Shown here piece after piece: positions 200 to 50,309 of a stretch of DNA of 64,000 nucleotides. Source of the DNA: Candidatus Nomurabacteria bacterium (GTDB taxonomy: Bacteria > Patescibacteriota > Minisyncoccia > Phycocordibacterales > UBA9973). Location of the stretch: NCBI GenBank assembly GCA_020631955.1, contig JACKGL010000003.1, forward strand, positions 8,059 through 72,058. The letters run 5' to 3'. Numbering within the stretch: position 1 is the stretch's first letter; every line of letters begins with the position of its first letter. The notes below the pieces were generated by a model, which worked only from the letters and a program-made list of their open reading frames with translations, ran no database searches and was not told the DNA's origin. A program made the position numbers and the translations under genes.

Positions 200-228
200 A
201 CATTTGATGGTCTAAAAGATAATCAAAA

Positions 229-259
229 CCCCGACCCTGGTCGGGGTTTCGTGTTTTTT
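229..259 (+). terminator. Rho-independent terminator after the LRR gene
   Basis: Stem CCCCGAC (229-235) pairs with GTCGGGG (240-246), followed by TTTCGTGTTTTTT. Confidence 0.75.
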
Positions 260-556: not shown

Positions 557-3100
557 ATGGTCAACAATATTACAATCACACGTCGTGATGGTACAAAAGA
601 GATCTTTGACGCAGACCGTATCAACAGATCTATTGAAAGAGCTTGCCGAGGCCTGTCTGATCCAATAGGAATGGTCACCCAAATAGCTACAGAAACTCAT
701 CTTACTTTATATGATGGGATTACTGAAGATGAGCTAGATGAGGCGACTATTAATGCAGCGTTGCAAAATGCGCAATTGGATCCAGACTTCGACACAGCTG
801 CTACAAGAATTCTAATAAAAACGATGTACAAACGGGTTTTAGGGGATTATAAGAACGACGAAGATCTAAAAAGAGTACATGTTGAAAGATTTCCTGCTCA
901 TATATTGGAGCTTATCGACGCTGGTCTTGTAGATAAAAGACTTGGAACACTATTTAATCTAAAAGAATTAGCAGAAGCACTAGATCCTAGAAGAGATGAT
1001 CTTTACAAATACTCAGGTGCATCTACCATGGCCAACAGGTACATGGTAAAAAATGAAAAGCAACAAGCAATAGAGATACCACAATACTTCTGGATGAGAG
1101 TTGCTATGGGTCTGTCACTTTCTGAATCAGAACCAACAAAATGGGCAAAGAAATTTTATGATAAAATGTCCAAACTAGAATACCTATCTGCTGGATCTAC
1201 CAACCTAGGTGCAGGTACACCTGTACCAAAACTTTCCAACTGTTTCTTGATGGAAATGCATGACAATATGGAACACATAGGAAAGACAGTTTCAGACGTA
1301 CTGCTTCTTTCTAAAGCTACTGGAGGTATCGGTCTTTCTGTGACCAAACTAAGAGCAAACGGGTCTATACTAAAATCTTCAAACACAGTTTCATCTGGAC
1401 CTATTCCTTTCATGCACATCATAGACTCTTCTATCAGAGCTGTGCAGAGAGGTGGAAAGAAAAAAGGAGCTCTTTGTTTTTACATGGAGAACTGGCACTT
1501 GGACTTCCAAGACTTTCTTGATCTAAAACAAAATGCCGGAGACGACTATAGAAGAACTCGTACCGCAAACACAGCTGTGTATCTATCAGACGAATTCATG
1601 AGAAGAGTAGTAAAAGGTGAGGACTGGTATTTGTTTGATCCAAATGAAGTGAAAGATCTTCCAGAACTATATGGGCAAGAATTTGCAAAGAGATATTGTG
1701 AGTATGTAGAGATGGCTAAAGCAGGAAAACTCAAGCTATGGGACAAACTACCAGCAAGACAACAATACAAAAACATACTTGTATCACTAGAAACTACTTC
1801 ACATCCTTGGCTGACATGGAAAGATACTATAAATGTAAGAGCTCTTAACAACAATACTGGTACTATACACTCTAGCAACCTTTGTACAGAAGTAACACTA
1901 CCTCAAGACAAAGACAACATAGCTGTTTGTAACCTTATATCTATCAATCTTTCAAGACACATCATAAACGGACAGGTTGATTGGCATAAGCTAGAAGAAA
2001 GCGCCCGATTGGCAACTCGTCAGCTAGACAACCTTATAGATATCAACGTGCTACCAGTACCTGAAGCAAGAAAAGCAGATGATGAAAACAGAGCAGTAGG
2101 TTTGGGTCTTATGGGATTTGCAGAATCTATAGAAAGAATGGGATTTTCTTATGAAGACGAAGAAGCTTTTGATTTTACTGATAAGATTTTCGAATTCATC
2201 AGCTACATGGCTATAGATGAAAGTGCAAACTTAGCAAAAGAAAGAGGAGTATACAAAAACTTTGAAGGTTCTGGTTGGTCTAAAGGTCTTGTGCCTGTAG
2301 ATACTATGAGCATCCTTGAAGCAGAAAGAGGTGTAGTGATAGATACAAAGAAAGGTTCTGTAGGACAAACACCTATGTTGGATTGGGATACTCTAAGATC
2401 TAAAGTAAAGAAAGGAGTACGCAATGCTACACTCATGGCTATAGCACCAAATGCGAACATAGGTCTTGTTGCGGGAACTAGTCCTGGTATAGATCCTAGA
2501 TTTGCTCAAATCTTTTCTAGAAACAAAATCTCAGGTAAGTATCTCGAAGTAAACACAAACATGGTAGCTGATCTAAAGAAACTTGGACTATGGGATAAAT
2601 ACAGAGATGAGATAATAAAACACTATGGAGACCTAGAACCTATTGCACAAATACCTGAAGATGTAAAAAAACTCTATAAGACATCATTTGCTATCGATCC
2701 ATTTGCTTTTATAGAAGTAGCAGCTAGAGCACAGAAGTGGGTAGACCAAGCTATCTCTAGAAATATGTATCTTGAGACTCGTGATATAGATAAAGTGATG
2801 AATATATATCAAGGTGCATGGGAAAGAGGACTCAAGACTACTTATTACTTACACATGAAGCCAAGACACTCAGCAGAACAATCTACTATCAAAGTGAACA
2901 AGTCCGAAGCTATAGGTAAGAAAGGTTTTGCAGCTCTATCATTTGCAGCAAAACCAAAAGAAGAAGTGGTACAAGAAAGCCAAGCTATCATGGAAGAACT
3001 CCCGACTAAGGTAGAACCAGATACAGTTAAAAAACCAGAATTCGTAGTGCATGGACCTGTAGATCCACAAGACGCAAATATCTGCGAAGGCTGCGAATAG
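557..3100 (+). CDS. nrdA: Ribonucleoside-diphosphate reductase, alpha (large) subunit with N-terminal ATP-cone
   Basis: ATP-cone ITRRDGTKEIFDADRINRSIERA; active-site block SSNLCTEV; C-terminal Cys pair CEGCE. ATG at 557 preferred over the GTG at 545 in the ORF track. Confidence 0.93.
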   Translation: MVNNITITRRDGTKEIFDADRINRSIERACRGLSDPIGMVTQIATETHLTLYDGITEDELDEATINAALQNAQLDPDFDTAATRILIKTMYKRVLGDYKNDEDLKRVHVERFPAHILELIDAGLVDKRLGTLFNLKELAEALDPRRDDLYKYSGASTMANRYMVKNEKQQAIEIPQYFWMRVAMGLSLSESEPTKWAKKFYDKMSKLEYLSAGSTNLGAGTPVPKLSNCFLMEMHDNMEHIGKTVSDVLLLSKATGGIGLSVTKLRANGSILKSSNTVSSGPIPFMHIIDSSIRAVQRGGKKKGALCFYMENWHLDFQDFLDLKQNAGDDYRRTRTANTAVYLSDEFMRRVVKGEDWYLFDPNEVKDLPELYGQEFAKRYCEYVEMAKAGKLKLWDKLPARQQYKNILVSLETTSHPWLTWKDTINVRALNNNTGTIHSSNLCTEVTLPQDKDNIAVCNLISINLSRHIINGQVDWHKLEESARLATRQLDNLIDINVLPVPEARKADDENRAVGLGLMGFAESIERMGFSYEDEEAFDFTDKIFEFISYMAIDESANLAKERGVYKNFEGSGWSKGLVPVDTMSILEAERGVVIDTKKGSVGQTPMLDWDTLRSKVKKGVRNATLMAIAPNANIGLVAGTSPGIDPRFAQIFSRNKISGKYLEVNTNMVADLKKLGLWDKYRDEIIKHYGDLEPIAQIPEDVKKLYKTSFAIDPFAFIEVAARAQKWVDQAISRNMYLETRDIDKVMNIYQGAWERGLKTTYYLHMKPRHSAEQSTIKVNKSEAIGKKGFAALSFAAKPKEEVVQESQAIMEELPTKVEPDTVKKPEFVVHGPVDPQDANICEGCE

Positions 3101-3133: not shown

Positions 3134-4144
3134 ATGTTGTTAGGAAAAGCATCACCTGAAGACATGAATCTTCACCCTATGCACTACAAATGGGCATATG
3201 ATCTTTACAACCAAGCTGTGAGAAACACATGGTTTCCACACGAAATACCGCTAGGAGAAGACCTGATGGATTGGAAGGGTATGACAGACGATGAAAAACA
3301 CGCCGTGACATTTCTTATGGCATTTTTCAATCCAGCAGAGCTCATAGTAAACAGATCTTTAGCACTTGGAGTATATCCTTATATAAAGTCTCCTGAATGT
3401 CACCTATATTTGGCAAAACAAATGTGGGAAGAAGCTAACCACTGTGTAGCTTTCGAATACGTACTAGAAACTTTCCCGTTTGATAGAGACGAGATATACA
3501 ATGTGCATATAAATACACCTTCTATGTTTGCTAAAGAGAGCTTCATAAACAAGTATCTAAAAAGAATGACAGAAGACACTCTAGATATATCTACTATAGA
3601 AGGTAAAAAAGACTTTATACGTAACCTTGTGGCTACAAACATCGTAATGGAAGGTATATGGTTTTACACTGGGTTCATGGTTGCTCTATCTTTCCGTCAA
3701 AGAAACAAATTACGCAATTTCGGCTCTATGATCAACTGGGTTGTGAGAGATGAATCACTACACCTTAAGTTCGGTATCAACCTTATACAAAACGCACTAG
3801 AAGAAAACGCTGATCTTGTGACAGAAGAGTTTGCTACTGAGCTTCGTGACATCATCATAGAAGGAGTAAATCTAGAAACAGAATACAATAAAGACCTCTT
3901 TCCAAAAGGAATACTCGGTCTTAACGCTGACTATGTAAACCAATACGTACAATACATAGCAGATAGAAGACTGGAAGAACTAGGTATGCCTATTTATTAC
4001 AATGCGACCAATCCTGCAAAATGGATGACTACTGCAAACGACGTATATGAACTTGTGAACTTCTTTGAAGCACAAAATACAGCTTATGAAGTAGACGCAA
4101 AAGGTCACGCAAAAGAAGAGGAAGAAAAACCAAAAGAAGAATAA
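3134..4144 (+). CDS. nrdB: Ribonucleotide reductase beta (small) subunit, class Ic-like (R2c-type)
   Basis: Ferritin-like metal ligands E69, E100-x2-H103, E173, E207-x2-H210. F107 sits where class Ia has the radical Tyr, and Glu sits where class Ia has the first Asp ligand. Confidence 0.9.
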   Translation: MLLGKASPEDMNLHPMHYKWAYDLYNQAVRNTWFPHEIPLGEDLMDWKGMTDDEKHAVTFLMAFFNPAELIVNRSLALGVYPYIKSPECHLYLAKQMWEEANHCVAFEYVLETFPFDRDEIYNVHINTPSMFAKESFINKYLKRMTEDTLDISTIEGKKDFIRNLVATNIVMEGIWFYTGFMVALSFRQRNKLRNFGSMINWVVRDESLHLKFGINLIQNALEENADLVTEEFATELRDIIIEGVNLETEYNKDLFPKGILGLNADYVNQYVQYIADRRLEELGMPIYYNATNPAKWMTTANDVYELVNFFEAQNTAYEVDAKGHAKEEEEKPKEE

Positions 4145-5157: not shown

Positions 5158-5231
5158 CAACAGAAAACCCCGACTAGGTCGGGGTGCTCTGTTAGGCATT
5201 TGTATTATTAATTTGGAGTGATTAAACTCAC
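5158..5231 (-). ncRNA. Candidate small RNA (about 75 nt) delimited by a strong promoter and a terminator
   Basis: Minus-strand TTGACT (5261-5266), 17-bp spacer, TATACT (5238-5243) with TGC just upstream. Terminator ACCCCGAC/GTCGGGGT (5167-5187) followed by TTTTCTGTT. No ORF. Confidence 0.45.
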
Positions 5232-5374: not shown

Positions 5375-7891
5375 ATGAAAATCGGTAAACTAAATGAGTT
5401 ATTTACTACAGGGCAGAGTAAGAATTTCATAAAAAACGCTAATAAAATAGTAGAAAAAATAAACTCCCTTGAGGAGTCTTTTAGCGCTTTGTCTCAAGAA
5501 GATCTGAAGAACAAGACTAGTGAGCTTCGAGCTAGGTATCAGAAAGGGGAGTTGTTGGATGATATGTTGCCAGAGGCTTTTGCTATGGTGCGAGAGGCTG
5601 CAAAAAGGACCATGAATATGCGTCATTATGATGTACAACTTATAGGAGGTATTGCACTACACAAAAGCGGTATAGCAGAGATGCGCACAGGTGAAGGTAA
5701 GACGCTGGTGGCAACACTACCTGTTTTTCTTAACGCTCTTACTGGTAAAGGTGTGCATGTTGTCACAGTAAATGATTATCTAGCTAGAAGAGACGCAGTA
5801 TGGATGGGACAGATATATGATTATCTTGGACTTAGTTTGTCTGTTATAAATAGTCGTGTCTCTTATATATATGATTCTACTTCTACAACTGACTCAGTGG
5901 ATGGAGAAAGAGATGAAGAAGGTGCATACAAAGTAAGTTATGAATATTTACGTGAGGTAAACAGAAAAGATGCGTACGCTGCAGATATCACTTATGGTAC
6001 AAATCATGAATTTGGTTTTGATTATCTTAGAGACAACATTACTAACAACAAAGAAAACTTGGTACAAAGAGGTTTTTATTATGCGATAGTCGACGAGGTA
6101 GACTCTATACTTATAGACGAAGCAAGGACACCTCTTATCATCTCTATGCCGGCGGAGGAGTCAGATGATTTTTATAGAAAATTTGCAGATATAGCAAAGA
6201 TGATGATTCCAGAAACAGATTATAAAGTAGATGAAAAACAAAGAGCCATAAACCTGACAGATGAAGGTATACAAAAAGCGGAGAAAGCTTTAGGTATAGA
6301 AAATATTTATACTGAAAAAGGTATAAAATACGTTCATCACTTAGAGACTGCTGTAAAAGCTAAAGCTCTGTTTATAAAAGATAAAGATTATGTAGTAAAT
6401 GGAGGTGAGATAGTCATAGTCGACGCTTTCACTGGTAGACTGCAGCCGGGTAGAAGATGGAGTGAAGGTCTTCACCAAGCGGTAGAAGCCAAAGAAGGTG
6501 TATCTGTGAAAAGAGAGAGTCGTACAGCAGCTTCTATCACATATCAAAACTACTTTAGGTTCTATGAAAAACTATCTGGTATGACAGGTACCGCAGCTAC
6601 TTCTAAAGAAGAATTTTACAGTGTGTACAAACTAGACGTCATCACTATACCTACTCACAGACCTATACAAAGACTAGATAGAGATGATCTTATTTTCCAA
6701 ACAGAAAATGGTAAGTTCCAAGCTATAGCTAGAAAAATAAAAGAGTTACATGAAAAAGGTCAACCAGTACTAGTAGGTACCATATCTATAGAAAGAAACG
6801 AACTACTTTCTGCTCACCTTATGCAAGAAGGTATACCTCATAAGATACTCAACGCTAAAAACCACGAAGAAGAAGGTTTGATAATCGCAGATGCTGGTAA
6901 AAAAGGTGCTGTGACTATAGCCACGAACATGGCTGGTCGTGGTATAGACATCAAACTAGGAGGTGTAGACGCTACAAAAGAACAAAGTGAAGAAGTAAAG
7001 GCGCTAGGAGGACTATTTGTTTTAGGTACAGAAAGACACGAAGCAAGAAGAATAGATGATCAGCTTCGTGGACGTGCCGGACGTCAGGGAGATCCTGGAG
7101 AAACGCAATTTTTCGTGTCATTAGATGACGACCTTATGAGAATATTTGGACCTGATAGGATAAAGTCTATGATGGGTAGGTTTGGTATACCTGAAGATAT
7201 GCCTATAGAAAACTCTCTTATATCTAGAGGCCTTCGCAACGCTCAAACAAAAATAGAAGGAATTCATTTTGATTCGAGAAAATATGTTTTGGCTTACGAT
7301 GACGTCCTTAGTCGTCAGAGAAATGCCATATATGATAGAAGAAGAAATCTACTTTTAGGTGATAGGACAGAAATAGATTCTTTATTGGAAGAATTATCAA
7401 ACACATCTCCAGATGTACGTATAATGATAAATAATAAAAAAGCTTCTATACCAGAAGATGCTTTTTATGAGACCGTCAGAAGGATAGCTTTGTATGTTAT
7501 AGACTTGCTTTGGGTAGAGCATCTAGAGACCATGGATTATTTAAGGTCGTCTGTAAACCTGCGTGCTTATGGAGGTAGAGATCCACTTGTAGAATACAAA
7601 AAAGAGGCTCTGAATCTGTACAAAAATATGCAAATCTCGTATGAAAACCAAGTTATAGACCTGATAGAAACTATAGAATCCAAAGAAGCTCCTAAGGCAG
7701 AAGTTATACAAGAAAAAACTATAGTGGAAGAAAAACAAGAAACAAAAAGGTTTGATTCTACAGTGAGTGAAGTAAAAAATGTTATGGGTACATCTGGTAA
7801 AAACGATAACGATAAATTTGCCGAAGTTGGTAGAAATGATCCATGTCCTTGTGGTAGTGGAAAGAAATATAAAAAATGCCATGGAATGTAA
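5375..7891 (+). CDS. secA: Preprotein translocase ATPase SecA
   Basis: 838 aa. MRTGEGKT Walker A, DEVDSILIDEARTPLIIS, C-terminal zinc motif CPCGSGKKYKKCHG. Confidence 0.97.
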   Translation: MKIGKLNELFTTGQSKNFIKNANKIVEKINSLEESFSALSQEDLKNKTSELRARYQKGELLDDMLPEAFAMVREAAKRTMNMRHYDVQLIGGIALHKSGIAEMRTGEGKTLVATLPVFLNALTGKGVHVVTVNDYLARRDAVWMGQIYDYLGLSLSVINSRVSYIYDSTSTTDSVDGERDEEGAYKVSYEYLREVNRKDAYAADITYGTNHEFGFDYLRDNITNNKENLVQRGFYYAIVDEVDSILIDEARTPLIISMPAEESDDFYRKFADIAKMMIPETDYKVDEKQRAINLTDEGIQKAEKALGIENIYTEKGIKYVHHLETAVKAKALFIKDKDYVVNGGEIVIVDAFTGRLQPGRRWSEGLHQAVEAKEGVSVKRESRTAASITYQNYFRFYEKLSGMTGTAATSKEEFYSVYKLDVITIPTHRPIQRLDRDDLIFQTENGKFQAIARKIKELHEKGQPVLVGTISIERNELLSAHLMQEGIPHKILNAKNHEEEGLIIADAGKKGAVTIATNMAGRGIDIKLGGVDATKEQSEEVKALGGLFVLGTERHEARRIDDQLRGRAGRQGDPGETQFFVSLDDDLMRIFGPDRIKSMMGRFGIPEDMPIENSLISRGLRNAQTKIEGIHFDSRKYVLAYDDVLSRQRNAIYDRRRNLLLGDRTEIDSLLEELSNTSPDVRIMINNKKASIPEDAFYETVRRIALYVIDLLWVEHLETMDYLRSSVNLRAYGGRDPLVEYKKEALNLYKNMQISYENQVIDLIETIESKEAPKAEVIQEKTIVEEKQETKRFDSTVSEVKNVMGTSGKNDNDKFAEVGRNDPCPCGSGKKYKKCHGM

Positions 7892-7960
7892 TTTTATTAA
7901 AATTAAAGAAGCCCGCCCGTACCGAAAGATACGTTCGGGCGGGTGTCACGGAGCATAATC

Positions 7961-9415
7961 ATGAAAGTCCTAGAAGAACTGCTAAAAGGTGTGGATATAT
8001 TTGAGCAGACAGGACCTTCTGCTATAGAAGTAAGTGCAATATGTTTTGATACACGTGAGGAAATAATTCCACAATCAGTGTTTGTGGCTATTAGAGGTAC
8101 TAAAGTAGACGGGCATGACTTTATAGACACTGCCATAGAAAAAGGCGCTATAGCTGTAGTATGTGATGAAATACCAGAAAATGCTGCTAAGGGTGTAACT
8201 TATATAAAAGTGGAAAGTACAAATCTTTCACTACCTATAATGTGTCACAACTTTTATGACAATCCATCTAATATATTAAAAGTAGTAGGTGTGACCGGTA
8301 CCAATGGTAAGACAACAATAGCTACACTACTTTACCAGCTTTTCGAAGGGTCAGGTAAAAAGTCAGCACTTTTATCTACCGTTGAGTGTAAAATAGGTGA
8401 CAAGGTTTATCCTGCTACTCATACTACTCCAGACCCACTCAGGTTGGCCAAGATGATGAATGAAGCTGTTTCTTATGGAGCGGAATATGTATTTATGGAA
8501 GTGTCTTCTCATGCACTAGATCAAGGTAGAGTAGAAGGTATCAACTTCCGCGCTGCTATATTTACCAACCTTACTTTAGACCATCTTGATTATCATAAAA
8601 CTTTTGAGAATTATAGAGATGCAAAGAAAATACTTTTTGATAATTTATCAAGAAACAGTGTAGCTATAATAAACACAGATGACGAAAATGGGCAGTATAT
8701 GGTAAGAGATACGAAGGCAAAAGTAGTGACAGTAAGCAACAAGAGTACCAGTGACTATATGTATAAAGTAGTAGATATGAATATGGATAATATGGAACTT
8801 TTAGTAAACAACAATACATTTTCTTTGAATCTTGTTGGGCAGTATAATGCTACTAACTTTGTAGAAGTTTTAGCCACAGCAAAAGAGCTCGGACTTGATC
8901 TAGAAGAGATAAAAAATATATCCAGCAGCCTTTCTGGTGCTAGAGGAAGATTGGAAAAAATAGTATCGAAGTCTGGTGTCTATGGTATTGTAGATTATGC
9001 TCATACTCCAGATGCACTTAGCAATGTTCTCGGTACTATTTTAGAGATAAAAAAAGAAGATCAAAATATTATCACAGTAGTTGGTTGTGGTGGAGACAGA
9101 GATAAAACTAAAAGACCAGTCATGGCTAAAGTAGCTTTTGAAAAATCCAACTACACTGTATTTACTTCTGACAACCCTCGTAGTGAAGATCCTGAAACTA
9201 TAATAGATGATATGCTCTCTGACTTACCAAAAGGTTCACCTAAATATGAAAGAGTCACAGACAGAAGGGAAGCTATAAAAAGAGCTGTGTCTTTAGCTAA
9301 GTCAGGTGATATTGTGCTCGTAGCTGGTAAAGGACATGAAGAATATCAAGAAATAAATGGAGTAAAGAATCATTTTTCTGATAAAGAAGAAATAGAAAAA
9401 GTTTTTGGTTTATAA
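7961..9415 (+). CDS. murE: UDP-N-acetylmuramoyl-L-alanyl-D-glutamate--2,6-diaminopimelate ligase (MurE)
   Basis: GVTGTNGKTT P-loop and DNPR motif (TSDNPRSEDP), indicating meso-DAP specificity. ATG at 7961 has GGAG upstream; the ORF-track start at 7943 lies inside a hairpin. Confidence 0.93.
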   Translation: MKVLEELLKGVDIFEQTGPSAIEVSAICFDTREEIIPQSVFVAIRGTKVDGHDFIDTAIEKGAIAVVCDEIPENAAKGVTYIKVESTNLSLPIMCHNFYDNPSNILKVVGVTGTNGKTTIATLLYQLFEGSGKKSALLSTVECKIGDKVYPATHTTPDPLRLAKMMNEAVSYGAEYVFMEVSSHALDQGRVEGINFRAAIFTNLTLDHLDYHKTFENYRDAKKILFDNLSRNSVAIINTDDENGQYMVRDTKAKVVTVSNKSTSDYMYKVVDMNMDNMELLVNNNTFSLNLVGQYNATNFVEVLATAKELGLDLEEIKNISSSLSGARGRLEKIVSKSGVYGIVDYAHTPDALSNVLGTILEIKKEDQNIITVVGCGGDRDKTKRPVMAKVAFEKSNYTVFTSDNPRSEDPETIIDDMLSDLPKGSPKYERVTDRREAIKRAVSLAKSGDIVLVAGKGHEEYQEINGVKNHFSDKEEIEKVFGL

Positions 9416-42315: not shown

Positions 42316-45165
42316 ATGATGAAGAAGTACGATCATAAGGATATTGAGAAGAAATGGCAGGACAGATGGGAAGAGGAAGGTTTATACAAAACACCCAACA
42401 AGGTTCCAGGAAAAGACAACTACTACACTTTGGTGGAGTTTTCTTACCCTTCGGGGAACTTGCACGTAGGACACTGGTACGCTTTTTCTGTACCAGATAT
42501 GTTTGCAAGATACAAAAGGATGAGAGGGTACAACTCTCTATATCCTATGGGTTTTGATTCTTTTGGACTACCTGCAGAAAGAGCCGCTATATTACATGGT
42601 AAAAATCCAAAAGATTGGACTTATAAAAATATGGAATACATGCAAAACCAGCTACGTAGTATGGGAGCTAGTTTTGATTGGGACAGGAGAGTGATCACCT
42701 CTGATCCAGAGTATTATCGCTGGACTCAATGGATGTTCAACCAATTTTACAAAAACGACTTAGCTTATAAAGCCAACACAAAAGTGAACTGGTGTCCTAC
42801 TGATAAGACTATACTAGCCAACGAACAGGTGATAGATGGTAAATGTGATAGGTGTGGTACAGAAGTAGAACAAAAAGATCAAGAGCAGTGGATGCTCAAA
42901 ATCACAGAGTTTGCAGATGCGCTTACTGATGATCTAGATGGTCTTGACTGGAATGACGCGATAAAAGAAGCTCAAAGGTCATGGATAGGTAGGAGTGAGG
43001 GAAGTGAGATAAGTTTTAAGCTTTCTTCTGGAGACTCTGTAGATGTTTTTACTACTCGTGCGGATACGCTTTTTGGTGTCACATATGTTGTGCTTGCTCC
43101 AGAGCACCCACTGGTAAATAAACTTCTTGATCAAGTAGAGAACAAACAAGAAGTAGAAAAGTATATAGAAGAAACAAAGAAAAAATCAGAACTTGATAGG
43201 CAACAAGCAAAAGAAAAAACTGGAGTAGAACTAAAAGGTATAACGGCTACCAACCCTGCCTACCGGCAGGCAGGCCTGCAAAATGACGAAGAAGTCCCAG
43301 TTTGGATTGCGGACTATGTGCTTGCCGGGTATGGAACAGGTGCGGTAATGGCGGTACCAGCTCACGATGAAAGAGATTTTGAGTTTGCAAATAAATATGG
43401 ATTACCAATCAAACAAGTAATAGCACTCCAAATAGGGGAAAGAATTATTAATGCAAAAGAACGTTTAGGTGTTTCAGCAATTATAAGGAATTCTCAGGGT
43501 AAAATACTTGTTCAACAAAATGAACACCAAAGAGGGATATTGCATTCATTACCAGGTGGAGGTGTAGAAGAGGGTGAAAATGTAGAAGAGGCTTTAATCA
43601 GAGAGATTAAAGAAGAAACCGGATATACTGATCTTGAAATAGTTTTTTGTAAAGGGGCTTATGAATATAATTTTAACTCTCCTGAACGTGGTTATGACCG
43701 GAAATTAACCGAATTTTTATATGAGGTAAAATTAATTTCTGATAAGAATGAAGGAAGACATCTTACTGATAAAGAGAAAAGTATTATAAAAGATGATCTG
43801 TGGTTGGACCATAACGAAGCTATTAAAATTTTGAAACAATCAAATAATTTCTGCGGATACGCGGAGGCTATTTTAATGGAAAGAAAAAATAATTATTTAG
43901 ATGGAATACTCGTGAATTCAGGTAAATTCGACGGTCTTACATCCCAAGAAGCGCGGGAAAAAATTACAGAATTTGTTGGAGGAAAAATGGTAAAGACTTA
44001 CAGACTTCGTGACTGGGGGATAAGCCGCCAGAGATATTGGGGTTGTCCGATACCGATAGTTTATGACCCTGAAGGTAATGCTCATGCCGTGCCTGACGAG
44101 CATCTGCCTTGGCTGCTACCTGAAGATGTAGATCACACGCCAGACGGAACAGCACCACTAGCCAGGAGTAAAGAGCTTTTTGAAAGAACAGAAAAAATAT
44201 TTGGTAAAGGTTGGAAGCCAGAGGTAGAGACTATGGATACATTTGTAGATTCTTCTTGGTATTTTTATCGTTATCTTGATCCAAAAAATGAAAAAGAGTT
44301 TTGTAGTACTGACTCACAGAAAGATTTTATGCCGATAGATATTTATTTTGGTGGAGCAGAACACACCACTATGCACCTTTTGTATTCTCGTTTTTGGGTA
44401 AAGGCACTTCGTAAAATAGGTCTTACAGATATAAACGAACCTTATACAAGGAGAATCAACCGCAGCCTTATACTAGGACCTGATGGCAACAAAATGAGTA
44501 AGAGTAAAGGTAACGTGATAGACCCAGACGAAGTCGTAGGTTTTGTTGGAGCAGACACTGTACGTATGTATTTGGCATTTATAGGCCCTTATGGAGCTAC
44601 TAGCCACTATCCTTGGGATCCGAACGGTGTAGTAGGTATAAGAAGATTTATAGAAAGATTTTGGAAGACTACTGATTTTATAGTGGAGGATGATACAAAG
44701 TCACTAGACACTCTTTTACACAAGACTATAAAAAAAGTCACAGATGATATAGAAAGATACAAATTCAACACAGCCATATCTGCTATCATGATATTTATCA
44801 ACGAAGTAGAAAAGGAAAAGAAGATAAGTAAGGAGCAATATTCTACTATGGTCAAACTTCTTTCTCCTTTAGCTCCTCATGTGTCAGAAGAAATATGGAG
44901 AGAAGTTTTAGGTAACAGCAAATCTGTTCACCTAGAAGACTGGCCGGTATATGATGAGTCTCTTATAAAAGAAGAAGAGGTCAACATATCTGTATCTGTA
45001 AATGGTAAGTCTAGGTCTTTGGTAAAAGTGCCTTTTGATAGTGAAGAAGAATTTGTCTTGAGTGTAGCGAAAGAAGATCAAAATGTCTCTAAGTGGATAG
45101 ATGGGAAAAATATAAAAAAGATTATTTTTGTTCCCAATAAAATAATAAATATAATTACAGATTAG
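42316..45165 (+). CDS. leuS: Leucine--tRNA ligase carrying a ~160-aa Nudix-domain insertion and a 7-aa palindrome-encoded insertion in the CP1 editing domain
   Basis: HIGH-type SGNLHVGH, editing-domain blocks TTRADTLFGVTYVVLAPEHP and GTGAVMAVPAHDERDFEFA, YRLRDWGISRQRYWG, KMSKS. 949 aa, longer than typical bacterial LeuRS. Confidence 0.95.
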   Translation: MMKKYDHKDIEKKWQDRWEEEGLYKTPNKVPGKDNYYTLVEFSYPSGNLHVGHWYAFSVPDMFARYKRMRGYNSLYPMGFDSFGLPAERAAILHGKNPKDWTYKNMEYMQNQLRSMGASFDWDRRVITSDPEYYRWTQWMFNQFYKNDLAYKANTKVNWCPTDKTILANEQVIDGKCDRCGTEVEQKDQEQWMLKITEFADALTDDLDGLDWNDAIKEAQRSWIGRSEGSEISFKLSSGDSVDVFTTRADTLFGVTYVVLAPEHPLVNKLLDQVENKQEVEKYIEETKKKSELDRQQAKEKTGVELKGITATNPAYRQAGLQNDEEVPVWIADYVLAGYGTGAVMAVPAHDERDFEFANKYGLPIKQVIALQIGERIINAKERLGVSAIIRNSQGKILVQQNEHQRGILHSLPGGGVEEGENVEEALIREIKEETGYTDLEIVFCKGAYEYNFNSPERGYDRKLTEFLYEVKLISDKNEGRHLTDKEKSIIKDDLWLDHNEAIKILKQSNNFCGYAEAILMERKNNYLDGILVNSGKFDGLTSQEAREKITEFVGGKMVKTYRLRDWGISRQRYWGCPIPIVYDPEGNAHAVPDEHLPWLLPEDVDHTPDGTAPLARSKELFERTEKIFGKGWKPEVETMDTFVDSSWYFYRYLDPKNEKEFCSTDSQKDFMPIDIYFGGAEHTTMHLLYSRFWVKALRKIGLTDINEPYTRRINRSLILGPDGNKMSKSKGNVIDPDEVVGFVGADTVRMYLAFIGPYGATSHYPWDPNGVVGIRRFIERFWKTTDFIVEDDTKSLDTLLHKTIKKVTDDIERYKFNTAISAIMIFINEVEKEKKISKEQYSTMVKLLSPLAPHVSEEIWREVLGNSKSVHLEDWPVYDESLIKEEEVNISVSVNGKSRSLVKVPFDSEEEFVLSVAKEDQNVSKWIDGKNIKKIIFVPNKIINIITD
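43255..43274. repeat. 20-nt GC-rich palindrome CCTGCCTACCGGCAGGCAGG inside leuS
   Basis: Matches 19 of 20 positions of the palindrome at 49183-49202. Together with flanking bases it encodes the extra peptide AYRQAGL (43258-43278). Confidence 0.85.
43423..43902 (+). other. Nudix hydrolase domain nested in LeuRS (aa ~370-529)
   Basis: Intact Nudix box GGVEEGENVEEALIREIKEETGY. Flanked by LeuRS blocks ANKYGLPIKQVI and GILVNSGKFDGLTSQEA. Confidence 0.8.
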
Positions 45166-48790: not shown

Positions 48791-49162
48791 ATGGCAAAAG
48801 TACAACATAAGACCAAGATCCCTTCATTTTTCACCACATATCCTATGATTGTGCTTTATTTGATCATATCTATATCACTCTTATCTTCTTCTTTTGTTAT
48901 GGTAGGTAAGGCTTTTGATACTAGAAAAAAAGCTAACATTGCAGAATCTAAATACGAAGAAGCTTTAAAGCAAAATGAATATTTGCTAGATAAAACAAAT
49001 AGTGAAGAAGAGGGAAGTGAATATTTCTTAGAGTCAGTACTACGAGATGAATATAGAGCTGTGAAAGAAGGTGAGGAGATAGTCGTGATCACTGACCAGT
49101 ATGAAGATGTAGACCCTAACGCGAAAAAAGGTCTTTGGAATAGAATATTTGGTGACAAATAG
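48791..49162 (+). CDS. Septum formation initiator (FtsB/DivIC-like)
   Basis: Single TM helix followed by coiled coil, and the conserved C-terminal block YFLESVLRDEYRAVKEGEEIVVI. Confidence 0.7.
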   Translation: MAKVQHKTKIPSFFTTYPMIVLYLIISISLLSSSFVMVGKAFDTRKKANIAESKYEEALKQNEYLLDKTNSEEEGSEYFLESVLRDEYRAVKEGEEIVVITDQYEDVDPNAKKGLWNRIFGDK

Positions 49163-49181
49163 TGGTGCCCTTGCCAGGAAT

Positions 49182-49203
49182 CCCTGCCTGCCGGCAGGCA
49201 GGG
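49182..49203. repeat. Perfect 22-nt palindrome CCCTGCCTGCCGGCAGGCAGGG, splitting the T-loop of tRNA-like copy A
   Basis: Self-complementary 11+11 nt; very GC-rich in an AT-rich genome. Confidence 0.9.
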
Positions 49204-49298
49204 AACCAGAACCACTCCTCCCTGCTTCGCTGAAGCTACAAAGGACACAGTAGGACGGAGTTGTTGCCCGCCTGCCAAATTAATACATTTACAAATTG

Positions 49299-49370
49299 TG
49301 TCTCTGGTAGGAATCGAACCCACAATTACTCCTTAGGACGGAGTCGTTATATCCATTTAACTACAGAGAC
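49299..49370 (-). tRNA. tRNA-Arg (CCU), intact (copy B), nested within copy A
   Basis: GTCTCTG-TA-GTTA-AATGGATA-TAAC-G-ACTCC-GTCCTAA-GGAGT-AATT-GTGGG-TTCGATT-CCTAC-CAGAGAC-A. No encoded CCA. Confidence 0.88.
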
Positions 49371-49482
49371 ATTTATTTTTACAAGCCGGGCAGGTATCCA
49401 TTTAACTACAAGGGCTTATAAATTAAGACAGACTAAAATCCGCTTGTTAGCGGATTTTAGCATATATGATATTTTTTTAAAA

Positions 49483-49716
49483 CTAAAGACCTAGTAGTTC
49501 TGATAGTTTTGCTTTATTGAAACCCACTACTATATCATTGTCTATCATGATAACAGGTACACCCATTTGTCCGCTTCTTTCTATCATTTCTTCTCTTCTT
49601 ACGGCGTCGGCTGCTACGTCAAATTCTTGGAACTCTACATTGTTCTCATGGAAGAATTCTTTTGTTGCTTTACAATATGTACATGTAGGTGTTGTGTAAA
49701 TTGAAACTTGCTTCAT
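49483..49716 (-). CDS. Glutaredoxin-like / NrdH-type small redoxin
   Basis: 77 aa. CTYC active site at the N-terminus of helix 1 and GVPVIMID motif. Terminator AAATCCGC/GCGGATTT at 49430-49460. Confidence 0.85.
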   Translation of the reverse strand: MKQVSIYTTPTCTYCKATKEFFHENNVEFQEFDVAADAVRREEMIERSGQMGVPVIMIDNDIVVGFNKAKLSELLGL

Positions 49717-49801
49717 AACATCTAACTTAATTTTTAATATGCCAATTATATCATATTAGATACTGGTGTGTATCTTGTCAGGGTGTGGTATAATTTTGTT
49801 T

Positions 49802-50137
49802 ATGGATCCAGAAATAAAAAGCCTTTTGGCTAAAAATCTAGAGCTTACAAGGGAGAGTCATGAGATGCTCAAAACGATAAAACGTATTACTGTAAGAGAG
49901 CATTTATATAGAAATATATATAGAGGTATCATCATACTTACTATATTGTTTTCTCTTTTCTTTGCTCAAAAAATATTGGGAGGTCTTTTGAATATGACAG
50001 GCGTAGGTCCTCTTATGGAAGTATACGGAGGAGGTTCTATAGACGGTCTAGGTAATCTAAACCTAGGAGATGTCTATGGAGGTCTTGGTGATCTTCAAAA
50101 TACAGACCAAATAAAAGACGCTATAAACGGTTTGTAA
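49802..50137 (+). CDS. Hypothetical single-TM protein with Gly-rich C-terminus
   Basis: MDPEIKSLLAKNLELTRESHEMLKTIKR..., one TM helix. ATG 49802 preferred over the ORF-track start. Confidence 0.5.
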   Translation: MDPEIKSLLAKNLELTRESHEMLKTIKRITVREHLYRNIYRGIIILTILFSLFFAQKILGGLLNMTGVGPLMEVYGGGSIDGLGNLNLGDVYGGLGDLQNTDQIKDAINGL

Positions 50138-50177
50138 AATTACCTAGATATGATATAAATATAGAGCTAAATTATAT

Positions 50178-50251
50178 GCTCAGGTAGCTCAGTTGGTTAG
50201 AGCACTCGCCTGAAGAGCGAGGTGTCGGCAGTTCGAGTCTGCCCCTGAGCA
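50178..50251 (+). tRNA. tRNA-Phe (GAA)
   Basis: GCTCAGG-TA-GCTC..GAGC-A-CTCGC-CTGAAGA-GCGAG-GTGTC-GGCAG-TTCGAGT-CTGCC-CCTGAGC-A. Confidence 0.93.
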
Positions 50252-50309
50252 CATAAAACACAAATAATGAAATTTAAATAATAAATGCTATAATTAATAA
50301 AATTCATTT

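What the first reader, a model, noticed from the sequence alone, without database searches (positions are those of the whole stretch)
49163..49415. tRNA-Arg(CCU)-like gene split by three insertions, one of which carries a second, intact tRNA-Arg(CCU)
Read on the minus strand, the segment GCCCTTG-TA-GTTA-AATGGATA (49395-49415) is the acceptor 5' strand plus D-arm of a tRNA. Its exact complement CAAGGGC-A-CCA lies about 230 nt away (49163-49173). Between them the remaining cloverleaf parts occur in the correct order: CAAC-A-ACTCC-GTCCTA (49251-49266), then A-GGAGT-GGTTCTGG-TTC / GATT-CCTGG (49174-49219). Joining the pieces gives a 71-nt tRNA-Arg(CCU) paralogue of the intact gene at 49299-49370. 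It has the same D-loop and the same ACTCC/GGAGT anticodon stem and GTCCTA loop, plus one D-stem and one T-stem mismatch. The three interruptions are as follows. (i) D-loop: about 129 nt (49267-49394) consisting of CCTGCCCGGCTTGT..., the entire intact tRNA-Arg(CCU), then ...GGCAGGCGGG; its ends can pair (CCTGCC/GGCAGG or TGCCCG/CGGGCA). (ii) Anticodon loop: 31 nt (49220-49250) exactly at the canonical 37/38 position, forming an extended rod with the anticodon. (iii) T-loop: the 20-nt palindrome 49183-49202, between TTC and GATT. Multiple non-canonical tRNA interruptions are known from some archaea and algae, not from bacteria. The alternatives are a decaying pseudogene colonised by palindromic elements, or a processed or spliced gene.
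Basis: partly seen in the sequence, partly recalled or inferred. Interest (0 to 1): 0.8.

Follow-up and report, generated by a model that had tools for sequence, protein, structure and literature searches.

The report
tRNA gene broken by replacement cassette
An arginine-tRNA gene in an uncultured Nomurabacteria bacterium has been split by three small DNA insertions, one carrying a working copy of the same tRNA. The old gene is therefore a fresh pseudogene rather than a spliced gene, and the same insert-and-replace cassette recurs in many related bacteria, which points to a selfish element that targets tRNA genes.

Summary
On the minus strand, four pieces (49415-49395, 49266-49251, 49219-49203, 49182-49163) join into a sequence that ARAGORN calls tRNA-Arg(CCU). 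An intact tRNA-Arg(CCU) (49299-49370) lies inside the D-loop insertion.

Close strains with an identical neighbouring glutaredoxin carry the same gene uninterrupted, 178 nt shorter. So the outer gene is the resident tRNA-Arg(CCU), recently interrupted at positions 21/22 (128 nt), 37/38 (31 nt) and 56/57 (20 nt), without target-site duplications.

The outer exons are decaying differently in different strains. The window has T22C and a lost T-stem G. Another strain has anticodon CCU changed to ACU. The inner tRNA is unchanged.

No bulge-helix-bulge motif, group I/II intron or ribozyme match was found, so splicing is not supported.

The D-loop insert belongs to a widespread family in candidate phyla radiation (CPR) bacteria: 5'-CCTGCCCG...[tRNA-Arg of the same anticodon]...GGCAGGCGGG-3', always at 21/22 and co-oriented, with outer copies ranging from intact to truncated. 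The 20-nt palindrome recurs in frame inside LeuRS and in other genomes.

Best reading: a selfish DNA cassette that disrupts tRNA-Arg and brings its own replacement. The mobilising enzyme is unknown. GIY-YIG mini-ORFs sit in analogous tRNA insertions in relatives. I found no description of this in the literature searched.

The parts
49395..49415 (-). Outer (resident) tRNA-Arg(CCU), positions 1-21: acceptor 5' strand, D-stem 5' strand and D-loop
   Evidence: Matches 21/21 the uninterrupted allele in L082.
49371..49394 (-). Cassette left flank CCTGCCCGGCTTGTAAAAATAAAT. The conserved end CCTGCCCG pairs with the right end.
   Evidence: The same 8-nt end sits at the same D-loop position in L067 and in at least 14 metagenome loci.
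49299..49370 (-). Inner intact tRNA-Arg(CCU), the functional replacement copy carried by the cassette
   Evidence: ARAGORN; Rfam tRNA 61.5 bits. Identical in all long-allele strains. Matches L078 at 69/72 and is of the same type as the inner tRNA of the L240 sister lineage.
49267..49298 (-). Cassette right flank CAATTTGTAAATGTATTAATTTGGCAGGCGGG, with conserved end GGCAGGCGGG
   Evidence: The same end occurs in L100, L123, L138, L150, L161, L166, L176 and L189.
49251..49266 (-). Outer tRNA positions 22-37 (D-stem 3' strand, anticodon-stem 5' strand, loop through A37). Carries T22->C.
   Evidence: In strain L083 this piece reads TAACAATTCAGTACTA, so the anticodon CCT has become ACT.
49220..49250 (-). 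31-nt insert at 37/38 with internal hairpin GCTTC-AGC-GAAGC. No target-site duplication.
   Evidence: Absent from the short allele. Related GC-rich inserts at 37/38 occur in L166 (41 nt) and L025. No full homologue elsewhere.
49203..49219 (-). Outer tRNA positions 38-56 (anticodon-stem 3' strand, variable region, T-stem 5' strand, TTC). Has lost one G of the T-stem.
   Evidence: L082 and L083 keep CTGGG.
49183..49202 (-). 20-nt perfect palindrome CCTGCCTGCCGGCAGGCAGG inserted at 56/57. Its halves resemble the two cassette ends, like an 'empty' cassette.
   Evidence: Exact copies in L029 and L092 and variants in L051, L109, L111 and L161.
49163..49182 (-). Outer tRNA positions 57-76: rest of the T-loop, T-stem 3' strand, acceptor 3' strand, discriminator A and encoded CCA
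   Evidence: Matches the L082 allele 20/20.
43255..43274 (+). Second copy of the palindrome (1 mismatch) inside the LeuRS editing domain, adding 21 nt / 7 aa in frame (..NPAYRQAGLQND..)
   Evidence: Alignment to T. thermophilus LeuRS shows a 7-residue gap exactly here. Present in all 3 full-length members of the 90% cluster.

Best explanation
The outer gene is the resident tRNA-Arg(CCU) of this Nomurabacteria lineage. It was recently inactivated at the DNA level by precise insertions into its three most conserved sequence blocks. The first-order event is a 128-nt promoter-less cassette at position 21/22. Its ends (CCTGCCCG / GGCAGGCGGG) pair to clamp the insert shut, and its cargo is a complete tRNA-Arg(CCU). 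Transcription from the resident promoter then yields a precursor. RNase P and 3' processing release the inner tRNA from it, so the cell keeps AGG decoding even though the target gene is destroyed. The outer halves are by-products and decay. Once the outer gene was dispensable, it could also retain two cargo-less GC-rich hairpin mini-inserts (31 nt at 37/38, 20 nt at 56/57) that would be lethal in a sole-copy tRNA gene. The cassette belongs to a selfish, site-specific family that spreads among CPR bacteria. It most likely spreads by nuclease-initiated copying (homing-like gene conversion) after DNA uptake, and escapes the usual need for self-splicing by carrying a replacement gene.

Shown: the resident gene was interrupted; the insertions are precise and lack target-site duplications; the outer copy decays while the inner copy is conserved; the family recurs at the same site, in the same orientation, with the same anticodon.

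Inferred: the transcription and processing route; that the cassette is selfish and mobile; the homing mechanism and the nuclease.
For: (1) Sister strains with an identical glutaredoxin carry the uninterrupted gene, 178 nt shorter (= 128+31+20-1). Strain L083 shows that all three insertions are exact, with no duplication or loss of target bases.
(2) Window and L083 differ by 0.9% over 2.8 kb, yet they show 5 differences in the 74 nt of outer exons and none in the inserts or the inner tRNA. L083 has lost the CCU anticodon.
(3) The nested architecture recurs: L007, L046 and L067 among 80 species representatives, the sister lineage L240/L241, and about 14 metagenome loci sharing the same ends CCTGCCCG...GGCAGGCGGG at 21/22.
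(4) Inner and outer copies are always co-oriented. They have the same anticodon in 10/10 informative cases (CCT, CCG or TCT).
(5) Outer copies range from intact (L150, L189) through point-damaged (L100, L161, L067) to truncated (L098, L176). Loci sharing one insertion by descent decay differently (L007 vs L046; L240 vs L241), while their inner tRNAs keep compensatory pairing.
(6) No locus was found with a hairpin-interrupted tRNA-Arg and no intact copy nearby.
(7) The window's inner tRNA matches distant L078 (LepA 61% identical) at 69/72, but closer relatives only about 55-60/72.
(8) In relatives, GIY-YIG (PF01541) mini-ORFs sit in analogous insertions that also restore the target by duplication. 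Examples are the T-loop of a tRNA-Arg(TCT) in L152, and position about 11 of tRNA-Phe in L240 but not in its near-twin L241. Further cases are L056, L020 and L073. All start with GC-rich hairpins at the junction.
(9) No sigma-70-like promoter lies between the outer 5' end and the inner tRNA.
(10) Strain divergence switches from 0.7% to about 5% exactly at this tRNA gene, so a recombination breakpoint lies there.
Against: No nuclease, transposase or integrase was found among 40 window ORFs scanned, nor inside the cassette. The mobilising enzyme is therefore unidentified, and the GIY-YIG link rests on neighbouring tRNA genes in other genomes.

The inner tRNA keeps identical D-loop, anticodon-loop and T-loop blocks, so the cassette does not obviously immunise its host allele, as classical homing predicts.

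All three insertions are either present or absent in the strains seen, with no intermediates. That would also fit simultaneous loss, for example through an RNA intermediate.

The flank helix is conserved and shows some compensatory change (T-A to A-T at pair 17). This suggests an RNA or single-stranded DNA structural role that homing alone does not explain.

In 4 of 8 nested pairs the anticodon arm of inner and outer is identical while the acceptor and T stems differ, which a simple foreign origin does not predict.

The cassette was not found on viral contigs, so no vector is known.
Confidence: 0.6

Rival explanations
1. The inserts are hairpin transposable elements of the MITE, REP or IS200/IS605 kind, moved as single-stranded DNA by a transposase encoded elsewhere in the genome. 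The 128-nt element is a cargo-carrying member and the 20-nt palindrome a minimal member. A tRNA gene folded as a cloverleaf in single-stranded DNA would expose its three loops as targets. This is still a DNA-level selfish insertion plus a pseudogene, but it works by transposition rather than homing.
For: The element ends are self-complementary with a conserved CxA mismatch. The 20-mer is dispersed: a second copy lies in LeuRS, and exact or near copies occur in L029, L092, L051, L109 and L161. The insertions are precise and lack target-site duplications, as in the IS200/IS605 family (family property from my own knowledge). All three hits are in loop-coding segments.
Against: No shared target tetranucleotide precedes the insertion points (GATA, CCTA, GTTC, and CAAC or CTGC). 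No Y1/HUH transposase was found in the 40 ORFs scanned. Copy number is very low, about 1 per 100 kb. The strict 21/22 site and strict orientation across many species look more site-specific than a MITE.
Confidence: 0.2
2. The outer gene is a genuine multi-intron tRNA. The three inserts are removed from the RNA by an unknown bacterial pathway, the D-loop 'intron' delivers a second tRNA, and the short allele arose by loss of all introns through a processed RNA copy.
For: The insert positions 21/22, 37/38 and 56/57 are classic intron positions in archaeal tRNAs (my own knowledge). All three inserts are present or absent together, with exact junctions. The flanks form a helix that would bring the exon ends together. 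Several outer genes in other loci are perfectly intact once joined (L150, L189).
Against: The junctions lie in uninterrupted helices with no bulge-helix-bulge. No group I/II intron or ribozyme family matches at E<=10. The organism is bacterial (RNase P class A), and no EndA or RtcB was seen in the ORFs scanned. The outer exons carry strain-specific lesions, including a changed anticodon. Outer copies are truncated in L098 and L176. An intact same-anticodon tRNA is always present, so nothing requires splicing.
Confidence: 0.06
3. The nested arrangement has been put to use by the cell. The outer halves plus the GC clamp serve as a processing or folding scaffold for the inner tRNA, for example as an RNase III stalk like those flanking rRNAs, or as an insulator against mispairing. 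They are kept for that role rather than being pure junk.
For: In the canonical family members a 15-17 bp flank helix sits directly next to the inner acceptor stem, with one compensatory pair change. Inner and outer acceptor and T stems differ systematically, while the D and anticodon arms are often identical, as expected if mispairing must be avoided.
Against: In the window the helix is weak (13/19 pairs). Truncated or clamp-less versions (L240, L098, L176) still keep an intact inner tRNA. Most relatives express tRNA-Arg(CCU) with no such flanks.
Confidence: 0.08
4. There is no mobile element. Local duplication and rearrangement of the tRNA-Arg gene was followed by random decay, and GC-rich hairpins arose by template-switch repair.
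For: Inner and outer anticodon arms are identical in 4 of 8 pairs. The locus is rearranged or inverted among relatives.
Against: The outer acceptor strands lie 230 nt apart, match each other 7/7, and differ from the inner stem at three compensated pairs, which rules out tandem copies with deletions. The same 8-10 nt ends occur at the same nucleotide position in many unrelated genomes. The identical 20-mer occurs in distant genomes.
Confidence: 0.04

Closest known systems
Integrative elements (phages, islands) that insert into tRNA genes and regenerate the gene from a copy carried by the element
   Same: A conserved tRNA gene is the target. Lethality is avoided because the element carries a replacement for what it displaces, and an orphan fragment of the old gene is left behind. 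The 'type B' arrangements in relatives (L017, L039, L042, L054) show exactly this for the 3' end, starting from T-loop position about 56/57.
   Different: Here the insert is only 128 nt and has no integrase. It sits in the D-loop, not the 3' half. It carries a whole tRNA rather than a 3' segment, leaves both halves of the old gene as orphans, and has no flanking direct repeats.
Free-standing GIY-YIG homing endonucleases in tRNA gene clusters (phage T4 SegB; PMC2330249, PMC13096335) and 'intronless homing'
   Same: Nuclease-driven, non-reciprocal copying of a segment that includes tRNA genes. The junctions are precise and lack target duplications, and the target is a conserved tRNA sequence. 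GIY-YIG mini-ORFs are present in analogous tRNA insertions in relatives.
   Different: No endonuclease gene lies in or near the window's cassette. The hosts are bacterial chromosomes, not phages. The element nests inside the target gene itself. Cleavage of tRNA-Arg DNA has not been shown.
Archaeal multi-intron and split tRNA genes (bulge-helix-bulge introns; PMC3978253 reviews disrupted tRNA genes)
   Same: Several interruptions in one tRNA gene, at 21/22, 37/38 and 56/57, each able to form a hairpin.
   Different: There is no bulge-helix-bulge and the host is bacterial. The exons are not conserved, an intact paralogue is always present, and an uninterrupted allele exists in sister strains.
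Group I introns in Patescibacteria tRNA genes (Nakagawa et al. 2026, PMC13011429)
   Same: Same phylum. tRNA genes are interrupted and missed by annotation tools.
   Different: Those are introns of about 200 nt or more, self-splicing, in the anticodon loop (33/34 to 36/37), and shown to splice in vitro. Here the inserts are 20-128 nt, lie in three loops, and have no intron-family match. That paper does not mention nested tRNAs.
Rickettsia palindromic elements and REP-type repeats (my own knowledge)
   Same: Short palindromic repeats that can sit in frame inside essential protein genes, as the LeuRS copy does here, as well as in RNA genes.
   Different: The element is much shorter (20-21 nt), its copy number is very low, its sequence is conserved across species, and it is related to the ends of a cargo-carrying cassette.

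Membership tests
Bulge-helix-bulge (archaeal-type) tRNA introns | Two 3-nt bulges separated by a 4-bp helix at the exon-intron junctions | tested here: not met
   The T-loop insert is a perfect palindrome that extends into T55-A58 and C56-G57. The D-loop insert pairs from its first to its last base. At 37/38 only one unpaired nucleotide lies between the anticodon-pairing helix and the anticodon stem.
Bulge-helix-bulge (archaeal-type) tRNA introns | Splicing endonuclease (EndA) and RtcB-type ligase encoded by the organism | not testable with these tools
   Only 64 kb of the genome is available. None was found among 40 ORFs scanned against Pfam. RNase P RNA is bacterial class A.
Bulge-helix-bulge (archaeal-type) tRNA introns | Exons under purifying selection, with the interrupted gene needed for that anticodon | tested here: not met
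   There are strain-specific lesions in the exons, including anticodon CCT->ACT in L083, and an intact tRNA-Arg(CCU) lies inside the insert.
Group I / group II introns in tRNA genes | Ribozyme core detectable by covariance model, and a length of about 200 nt or more | tested here: not met
   The inserts are 128, 31 and 20 nt. An Rfam E<=10 scan of 49050-49520 finds only the inner tRNA. Related loci also have no intron hits.
Integrase-mediated integrative elements at tRNA genes | Direct repeat of a tRNA segment flanking the element (attL/attR), plus an integrase gene | tested here: not met
   No flanking direct repeat and no target duplication. No integrase in the scanned ORFs.
Homing-endonuclease-driven insertions | Presence/absence polymorphism at a homologous site, with exact junctions and no target-site duplication | tested here: met
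   Long versus short alleles in strains with an identical glutaredoxin. L083 shows exact junctions.
Homing-endonuclease-driven insertions | Endonuclease gene inside or beside the element | tested here: not met
   None in the window's cassette or among the nearby ORFs scanned. GIY-YIG ORFs occur in analogous tRNA insertions only in other genomes: L152, L240, L056, L020, L073.
Homing-endonuclease-driven insertions | Co-conversion of flanking markers or a recombination tract at the site | tested here: inconclusive
   Divergence between long- and short-allele strains jumps from 0.7% to about 5% exactly at the tRNA. The pattern extends for kilobases and can be read in several ways.
MITE / REP-like palindromic repeats | Dispersed multi-copy family with self-complementary ends | tested here: met
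   Two copies in the window against 0 expected. Exact or near copies in L029, L092, L051, L109, L111 and L161. Copy number is low.
MITE / REP-like palindromic repeats | Target-site duplication, or a cognate transposase (DDE or RAYT) | tested here: not met
   No duplication at the three tRNA sites. No transposase in the scanned ORFs. The rest of the genome is not available.
Plain tRNA pseudogene with a functional paralogue | Structural lesions that vary among close strains, while a paralogue stays intact | tested here: met
   The window has T22C and the T-stem G deletion. L083 has three substitutions in the anticodon arm. The inner tRNA is identical in all strains.

The most novel reading that the evidence does not exclude
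The CCTGCCCG...GGCAGGCGGG-clamped insert, and the small GC hairpins at 37/38 and 56/57, might be a new class of bacterial tRNA intervening sequence that is removed or bypassed at the RNA level. For example, RNase P/Z release of the inner tRNA could leave two outer halves held together by the clamp and rejoined, or used as a split tRNA. In that case at least the freshly interrupted outer genes (L150, L189, and the ancestor of the window allele) would still yield a working tRNA, and the short allele could have arisen by intron loss.
Probability: 0.06. Interest if true: 0.9.

Novelty: new variant of a known kind. Interest (0 to 1): 0.62.

Why it matters
Selfish elements that land in essential, conserved genes normally survive by splicing themselves out (introns, inteins) or by regenerating the gene end they displace (integrases). 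This family appears to use a third solution: it carries a whole replacement gene into the middle of the target.

If that is right, tRNA-Arg genes in CPR bacteria are being serially overwritten, in Russian-doll fashion, and tRNA sequences in these lineages need not track organismal phylogeny.

The dead outer copy would also record small hairpin insertions that can never be seen in sole-copy tRNA genes.

Practically, annotation pipelines will call only the inner gene and miss the nested structure. The short GC-rich palindromes also explain odd in-frame insertions in proteins such as LeuRS.

The result also removes a tempting false lead: there is no evidence here for archaeal-style tRNA splicing in bacteria.

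Tried and rejected
- Bulge-helix-bulge introns: I inspected the junctions and the fold. There are no bulges.
- Group I/II introns and small ribozymes: Rfam found none, both with gathering thresholds on the window and at E<=10 on 49050-49520. An E<=1 scan of seven related loci also found none.
- Tandem triplication with deletions: rejected. The outer 5' and 3' acceptor strands are mutually complementary and differ from the inner stem at three compensated pairs.
- Phage vector: the junction pattern AAYGGATACCTGCCCG gave 25 hits in viral contigs, none in a tRNA context.
- Nuclease, transposase, EndA or RtcB in the window: a regex for GIY-YIG and Pfam scans of 40 ORFs found none.
- Polymorphism of the LeuRS palindrome: the 90% cluster has only 4 members, and all 3 full-length ones carry it, so this was uninformative.
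- Homologues of the 31-nt insert: none full-length. Only partial resemblance in L025 and L067.
- Intermediate alleles with one or two of the three inserts: none among the 10 strain contigs shown.
- Literature: four of the five searches looked for nested tRNA, CPR tRNA insertions or palindromic elements and found no description of this arrangement. The closest paper is about group I introns and does not mention it.

Full report
**Observation.** On the minus strand the window reads as follows. GCCCTTGTAGTTAAATGGATA (49415-49395) is followed by a 128-nt insert (49394-49267), then CAACAACTCCGTCCTA (49266-49251) and a 31-nt insert (49250-49220). Next come AGGAGTGGTTCTGGTTC (49219-49203), the 20-nt perfect palindrome CCTGCCTGCCGGCAGGCAGG (49202-49183), and GATTCCTGGCAAGGGCACCA (49182-49163). 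ARAGORN calls the four joined pieces tRNA-Arg(cct), 74 nt including CCA. In the native sequence ARAGORN and Rfam see only the inner gene at 49299-49370 (61.5 bits). The outer acceptor strands lie 230 nt apart and pair 7/7. They differ from the inner stem at three compensated pairs, so this is a true nesting and not tandem copies with deletions.

**Context.** The window is bacterial. It holds an RNase P class A RNA. Sources name its proteins Candidatus Nomurabacteria (Paceibacteria, candidate phyla radiation or CPR). The closest species representatives have LepA 60-71% identical. The usual gene order in relatives is LepA, a DivIC/FtsB-like gene, tRNA-Gly(CCC), glutaredoxin, tRNA-Arg(CCU), tRNA-Phe.

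**Decisive comparison.** I looked up the exact 77-aa glutaredoxin next to the locus. This returned strain-level contigs with two alleles.
- Five assemblies carry the window's long allele.
- Four carry a short allele, 178 nt shorter. In it the outer gene is uninterrupted: GCCCTTGTAGTTAAATGGATATAACAACTCCGTCCTAAGGAGTGGTTCTGGGTTCGATTCCTGGCAAGGGCACCA (ARAGORN; Rfam 57 bits).
- 178 equals 128+31+20-1.

The outer gene is therefore the resident tRNA-Arg(CCU), interrupted at 21/22, 37/38 and 56/57. Long-allele strain L083 keeps T22 and the full CTGGG T-stem. This shows that all three insertions were exact and had no target-site duplication. The window's 'mismatches' are later lesions (T22C and loss of one G).

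**Decay.** Window and L083 differ by 0.9% over 2.8 kb. Yet the 74 nt of outer exons hold five differences, and the inserts and the inner tRNA hold none. In L083 exon 2 reads TAACAATTCAGTACTA, so the anticodon is no longer CCU. Loci that share one insertion by descent also decay differently in the outer copy (L007 vs L046; L240 vs L241), while the inner copies keep compensatory pairing. This is pseudogene behaviour.

**A family, not an accident.** Among the 80 LepA-syntenic loci, L007, L046 and L067 are nested, and L025 and L017 keep remnants. The sister lineage L240/L241 (LepA 77%) is also nested. Its inner tRNA is of the same type as the window's, and part of the 3' flank is shared.

A metagenome scan for the junction AAYGGATACCTGCCCG gave mostly chance hits. 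It also gave about 19 hits in a tRNA context. Their consensus is: outer positions 1-21, CCTGCCCGCCATAGCCTGA, an intact tRNA-Arg, TAGGCGATGGCAGGCGGG, then outer position 22 onward.
- The flanks form a 15-17 bp helix with a conserved CxA mismatch at pair 7 and one compensatory change at pair 17.
- Inner and outer copies are always co-oriented. They share the anticodon in 10/10 informative cases (CCT, CCG, TCT).
- Outer copies run from intact (L150, L189) through point-damaged (L100, L161, L067) to truncated (L098, L176).
- L166 combines the D-loop cassette with a 41-nt GC-rich insert at 37/38, as the window does.
- Cargo-less hairpin versions exist (L122, L131).
- I found no locus in which an interrupted tRNA-Arg lacks an intact partner.

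**The small inserts.** The two halves of the 20-mer resemble the two cassette ends, like an empty cassette. A second copy (1 mismatch) lies in LeuRS at 43255-43274 (0 expected). There it adds 7 residues in frame relative to solved LeuRS structures. Exact or near copies occur in L029, L092, L051, L109, L111 and L161. The 31-nt insert has only partial relatives (L025, L067).

**Tests for splicing.** The junctions lie in continuous helices, with no bulge-helix-bulge. No intron or ribozyme family matches. No EndA or RtcB was found among the 40 ORFs scanned, though most of the genome is unseen. Known Patescibacteria tRNA introns are group I introns in the anticodon loop (PMC13011429).

**Mechanism.**
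- Shown: precise DNA insertions into a resident gene; a replacement tRNA delivered with the first insert; decay of the old copy.
- Inferred: the promoter-less cassette uses the resident promoter, since no sigma-70-like site lies between the outer 5' end and the inner gene, and RNase P and 3' processing free the inner tRNA.
- Inferred: the cassette is selfish and spreads between lineages. The window's inner tRNA matches distant L078 at 69/72 but nearer relatives only about 55-60/72.
- Inferred: the most likely route is nuclease-initiated copying. In relatives, GIY-YIG mini-ORFs (PF01541) sit in insertions that likewise restore the tRNA by duplication. One is in the T-loop of a tRNA-Arg(TCT) in L152. 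Another is at position about 11 of tRNA-Phe in L240 but not in its near-twin L241. Further cases are L056, L020 and L073. All start with GC-rich hairpins at the junction.

The three insertion sites are the three most conserved sequence blocks of the gene. Such blocks are what homing nucleases favour, so no RNA-level event needs to be invoked. A recombination breakpoint (0.7% versus about 5% divergence) coincides with the tRNA.

Weak points: no nuclease in the window, no intermediate alleles, and an inner tRNA that still carries the presumed target blocks.

**Rivals.** Hairpin-transposon mobilisation is a DNA-level variant of the same idea (0.2). The others are an exapted processing scaffold (0.08), true splicing (0.06) and purely local rearrangement (0.04).

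**Novelty.** The closest known systems are integrase elements that regenerate tRNA ends, and free-standing GIY-YIG nucleases in tRNA clusters (T4 SegB, PMC2330249). A cassette nested in the D-loop that carries a full same-anticodon tRNA, recurring across CPR, was not found in the library searched. I rate it a new variant of a known kind, with interest 0.62.

Noticed in passing
window 43255-43274 (LeuRS ORF 42316-45165 +): The 20-nt palindrome (CCTGCCTACCGGCAGGCAGG, 21 nt net) is inserted in frame in the LeuRS editing domain and adds 7 residues (AYRQAGL-type) absent from solved LeuRS structures. A CCTGC motif flanks it on both sides. This is a GC-rich palindromic element tolerated inside an essential protein gene.
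   Followed up: partly
window 43462-43827 (LeuRS residues 383-504): LeuRS carries an inserted NUDIX domain (PF00293, 68.7 bits) right after the editing domain. The LeuRS of relatives L237/L238 lists it too. This is an unusual domain fusion for an aminoacyl-tRNA synthetase.
   Followed up: partly
L017 6854-7028; L042 6797-6962; L039 5409-5579; L054 7281-7436; L076, L029, L200: A second kind of tRNA-Arg-associated element. Downstream of an intact tRNA-Arg lie an inverted copy of its T-arm and acceptor 3' part, then about 100-150 nt of GC-rich structured sequence, then a direct repeat of the tRNA's last 17-21 nt starting at T-loop position about 54-57. It looks like a miniature insertion at 56/57 that regenerates the 3' end. 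No Rfam match.
   Followed up: partly
L007 6957-7050; L046 about 3335-3430; L004 about 7100-7190; L054 and L076 just before the repeated 3' end: A conserved module of about 85 nt, found in or next to decayed outer tRNA-Arg copies: GAGAAATGGG..CCCATTTCGCAAGACC, a covarying hairpin, then AARGTRTACYG and a hairpin with a 7-nt loop YTGTAAG whose stem covaries (GCTT/AAGT, GAAG/CTTC, GACC/GGTC). Its function is unknown and no Rfam family matches.
   Followed up: partly
L240 5694-6002 versus L241 (same site); L056 6261-6606; L020 about 7708-8009; L073 6867-7231: GIY-YIG mini-ORFs (75-86 aa, catalytic domain only) are inserted at about position 9-12 of tRNA-Phe or tRNA-Gly, with duplication of the first 9-12 nt of the tRNA and GC-rich hairpins (CCCGAC..GTCGGG, CCCGCCC..GGGCGGG) at the junction. 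L240 and L241 are a clean presence/absence pair.
   Followed up: partly
window 48791-50252: Relative to most relatives, the glutaredoxin/tRNA-Arg block is inverted with respect to LepA and the FtsB-like gene. The tRNA-Gly(CCC) that usually follows the FtsB-like gene is missing from this locus, and from the whole window.
   Followed up: no
window 49163-50214 versus flanks (alignment with L082): Divergence between long- and short-allele strains is 0.7% in the segment bounded by tRNA-Arg and tRNA-Phe, about 5% on the LepA side and 2-3% beyond tRNA-Phe. The tRNA genes appear to act as recombination end-points.
   Followed up: partly
window 228-247 and 5167-5185: GC-rich hairpins CCCCGAC-N-GTCGGGG in an AT-rich genome. 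The same motif starts the GIY-YIG insertions in the tRNA genes of relatives. Here they may simply be terminators.
   Followed up: no
L083 3443-3458 and L046 (outer anticodon region): Two independent outer pseudogenes carry the same C34->A change (CCT->ACT) in the dead anticodon. This may be coincidence, a mutational hotspot, or selection to disarm a defective tRNA.
   Followed up: no
L109 about 2300-3000; also L152 and L067: Multi-layer 'Russian-doll' nests. L109 has 4-5 tandem copies of a 70-nt outer-5'-half unit plus cassette left end, then one intact tRNA-Arg(CCT), then two copies of the 3' part. This could be real serial insertion or an assembly artefact.
   Followed up: no
nested pairs in window/L082, L100, L150, L123: Inner and outer tRNAs have identical anticodon arms (0-1 differences in 17 nt) but differ at 14-57% of acceptor 5' strand positions (41% over all eight nested pairs) and in the T-stem. 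This mosaic is unexplained. Candidate causes are gene conversion between conserved blocks, selection against mispairing, and escape from a nuclease that reads the acceptor and D region.
   Followed up: partly
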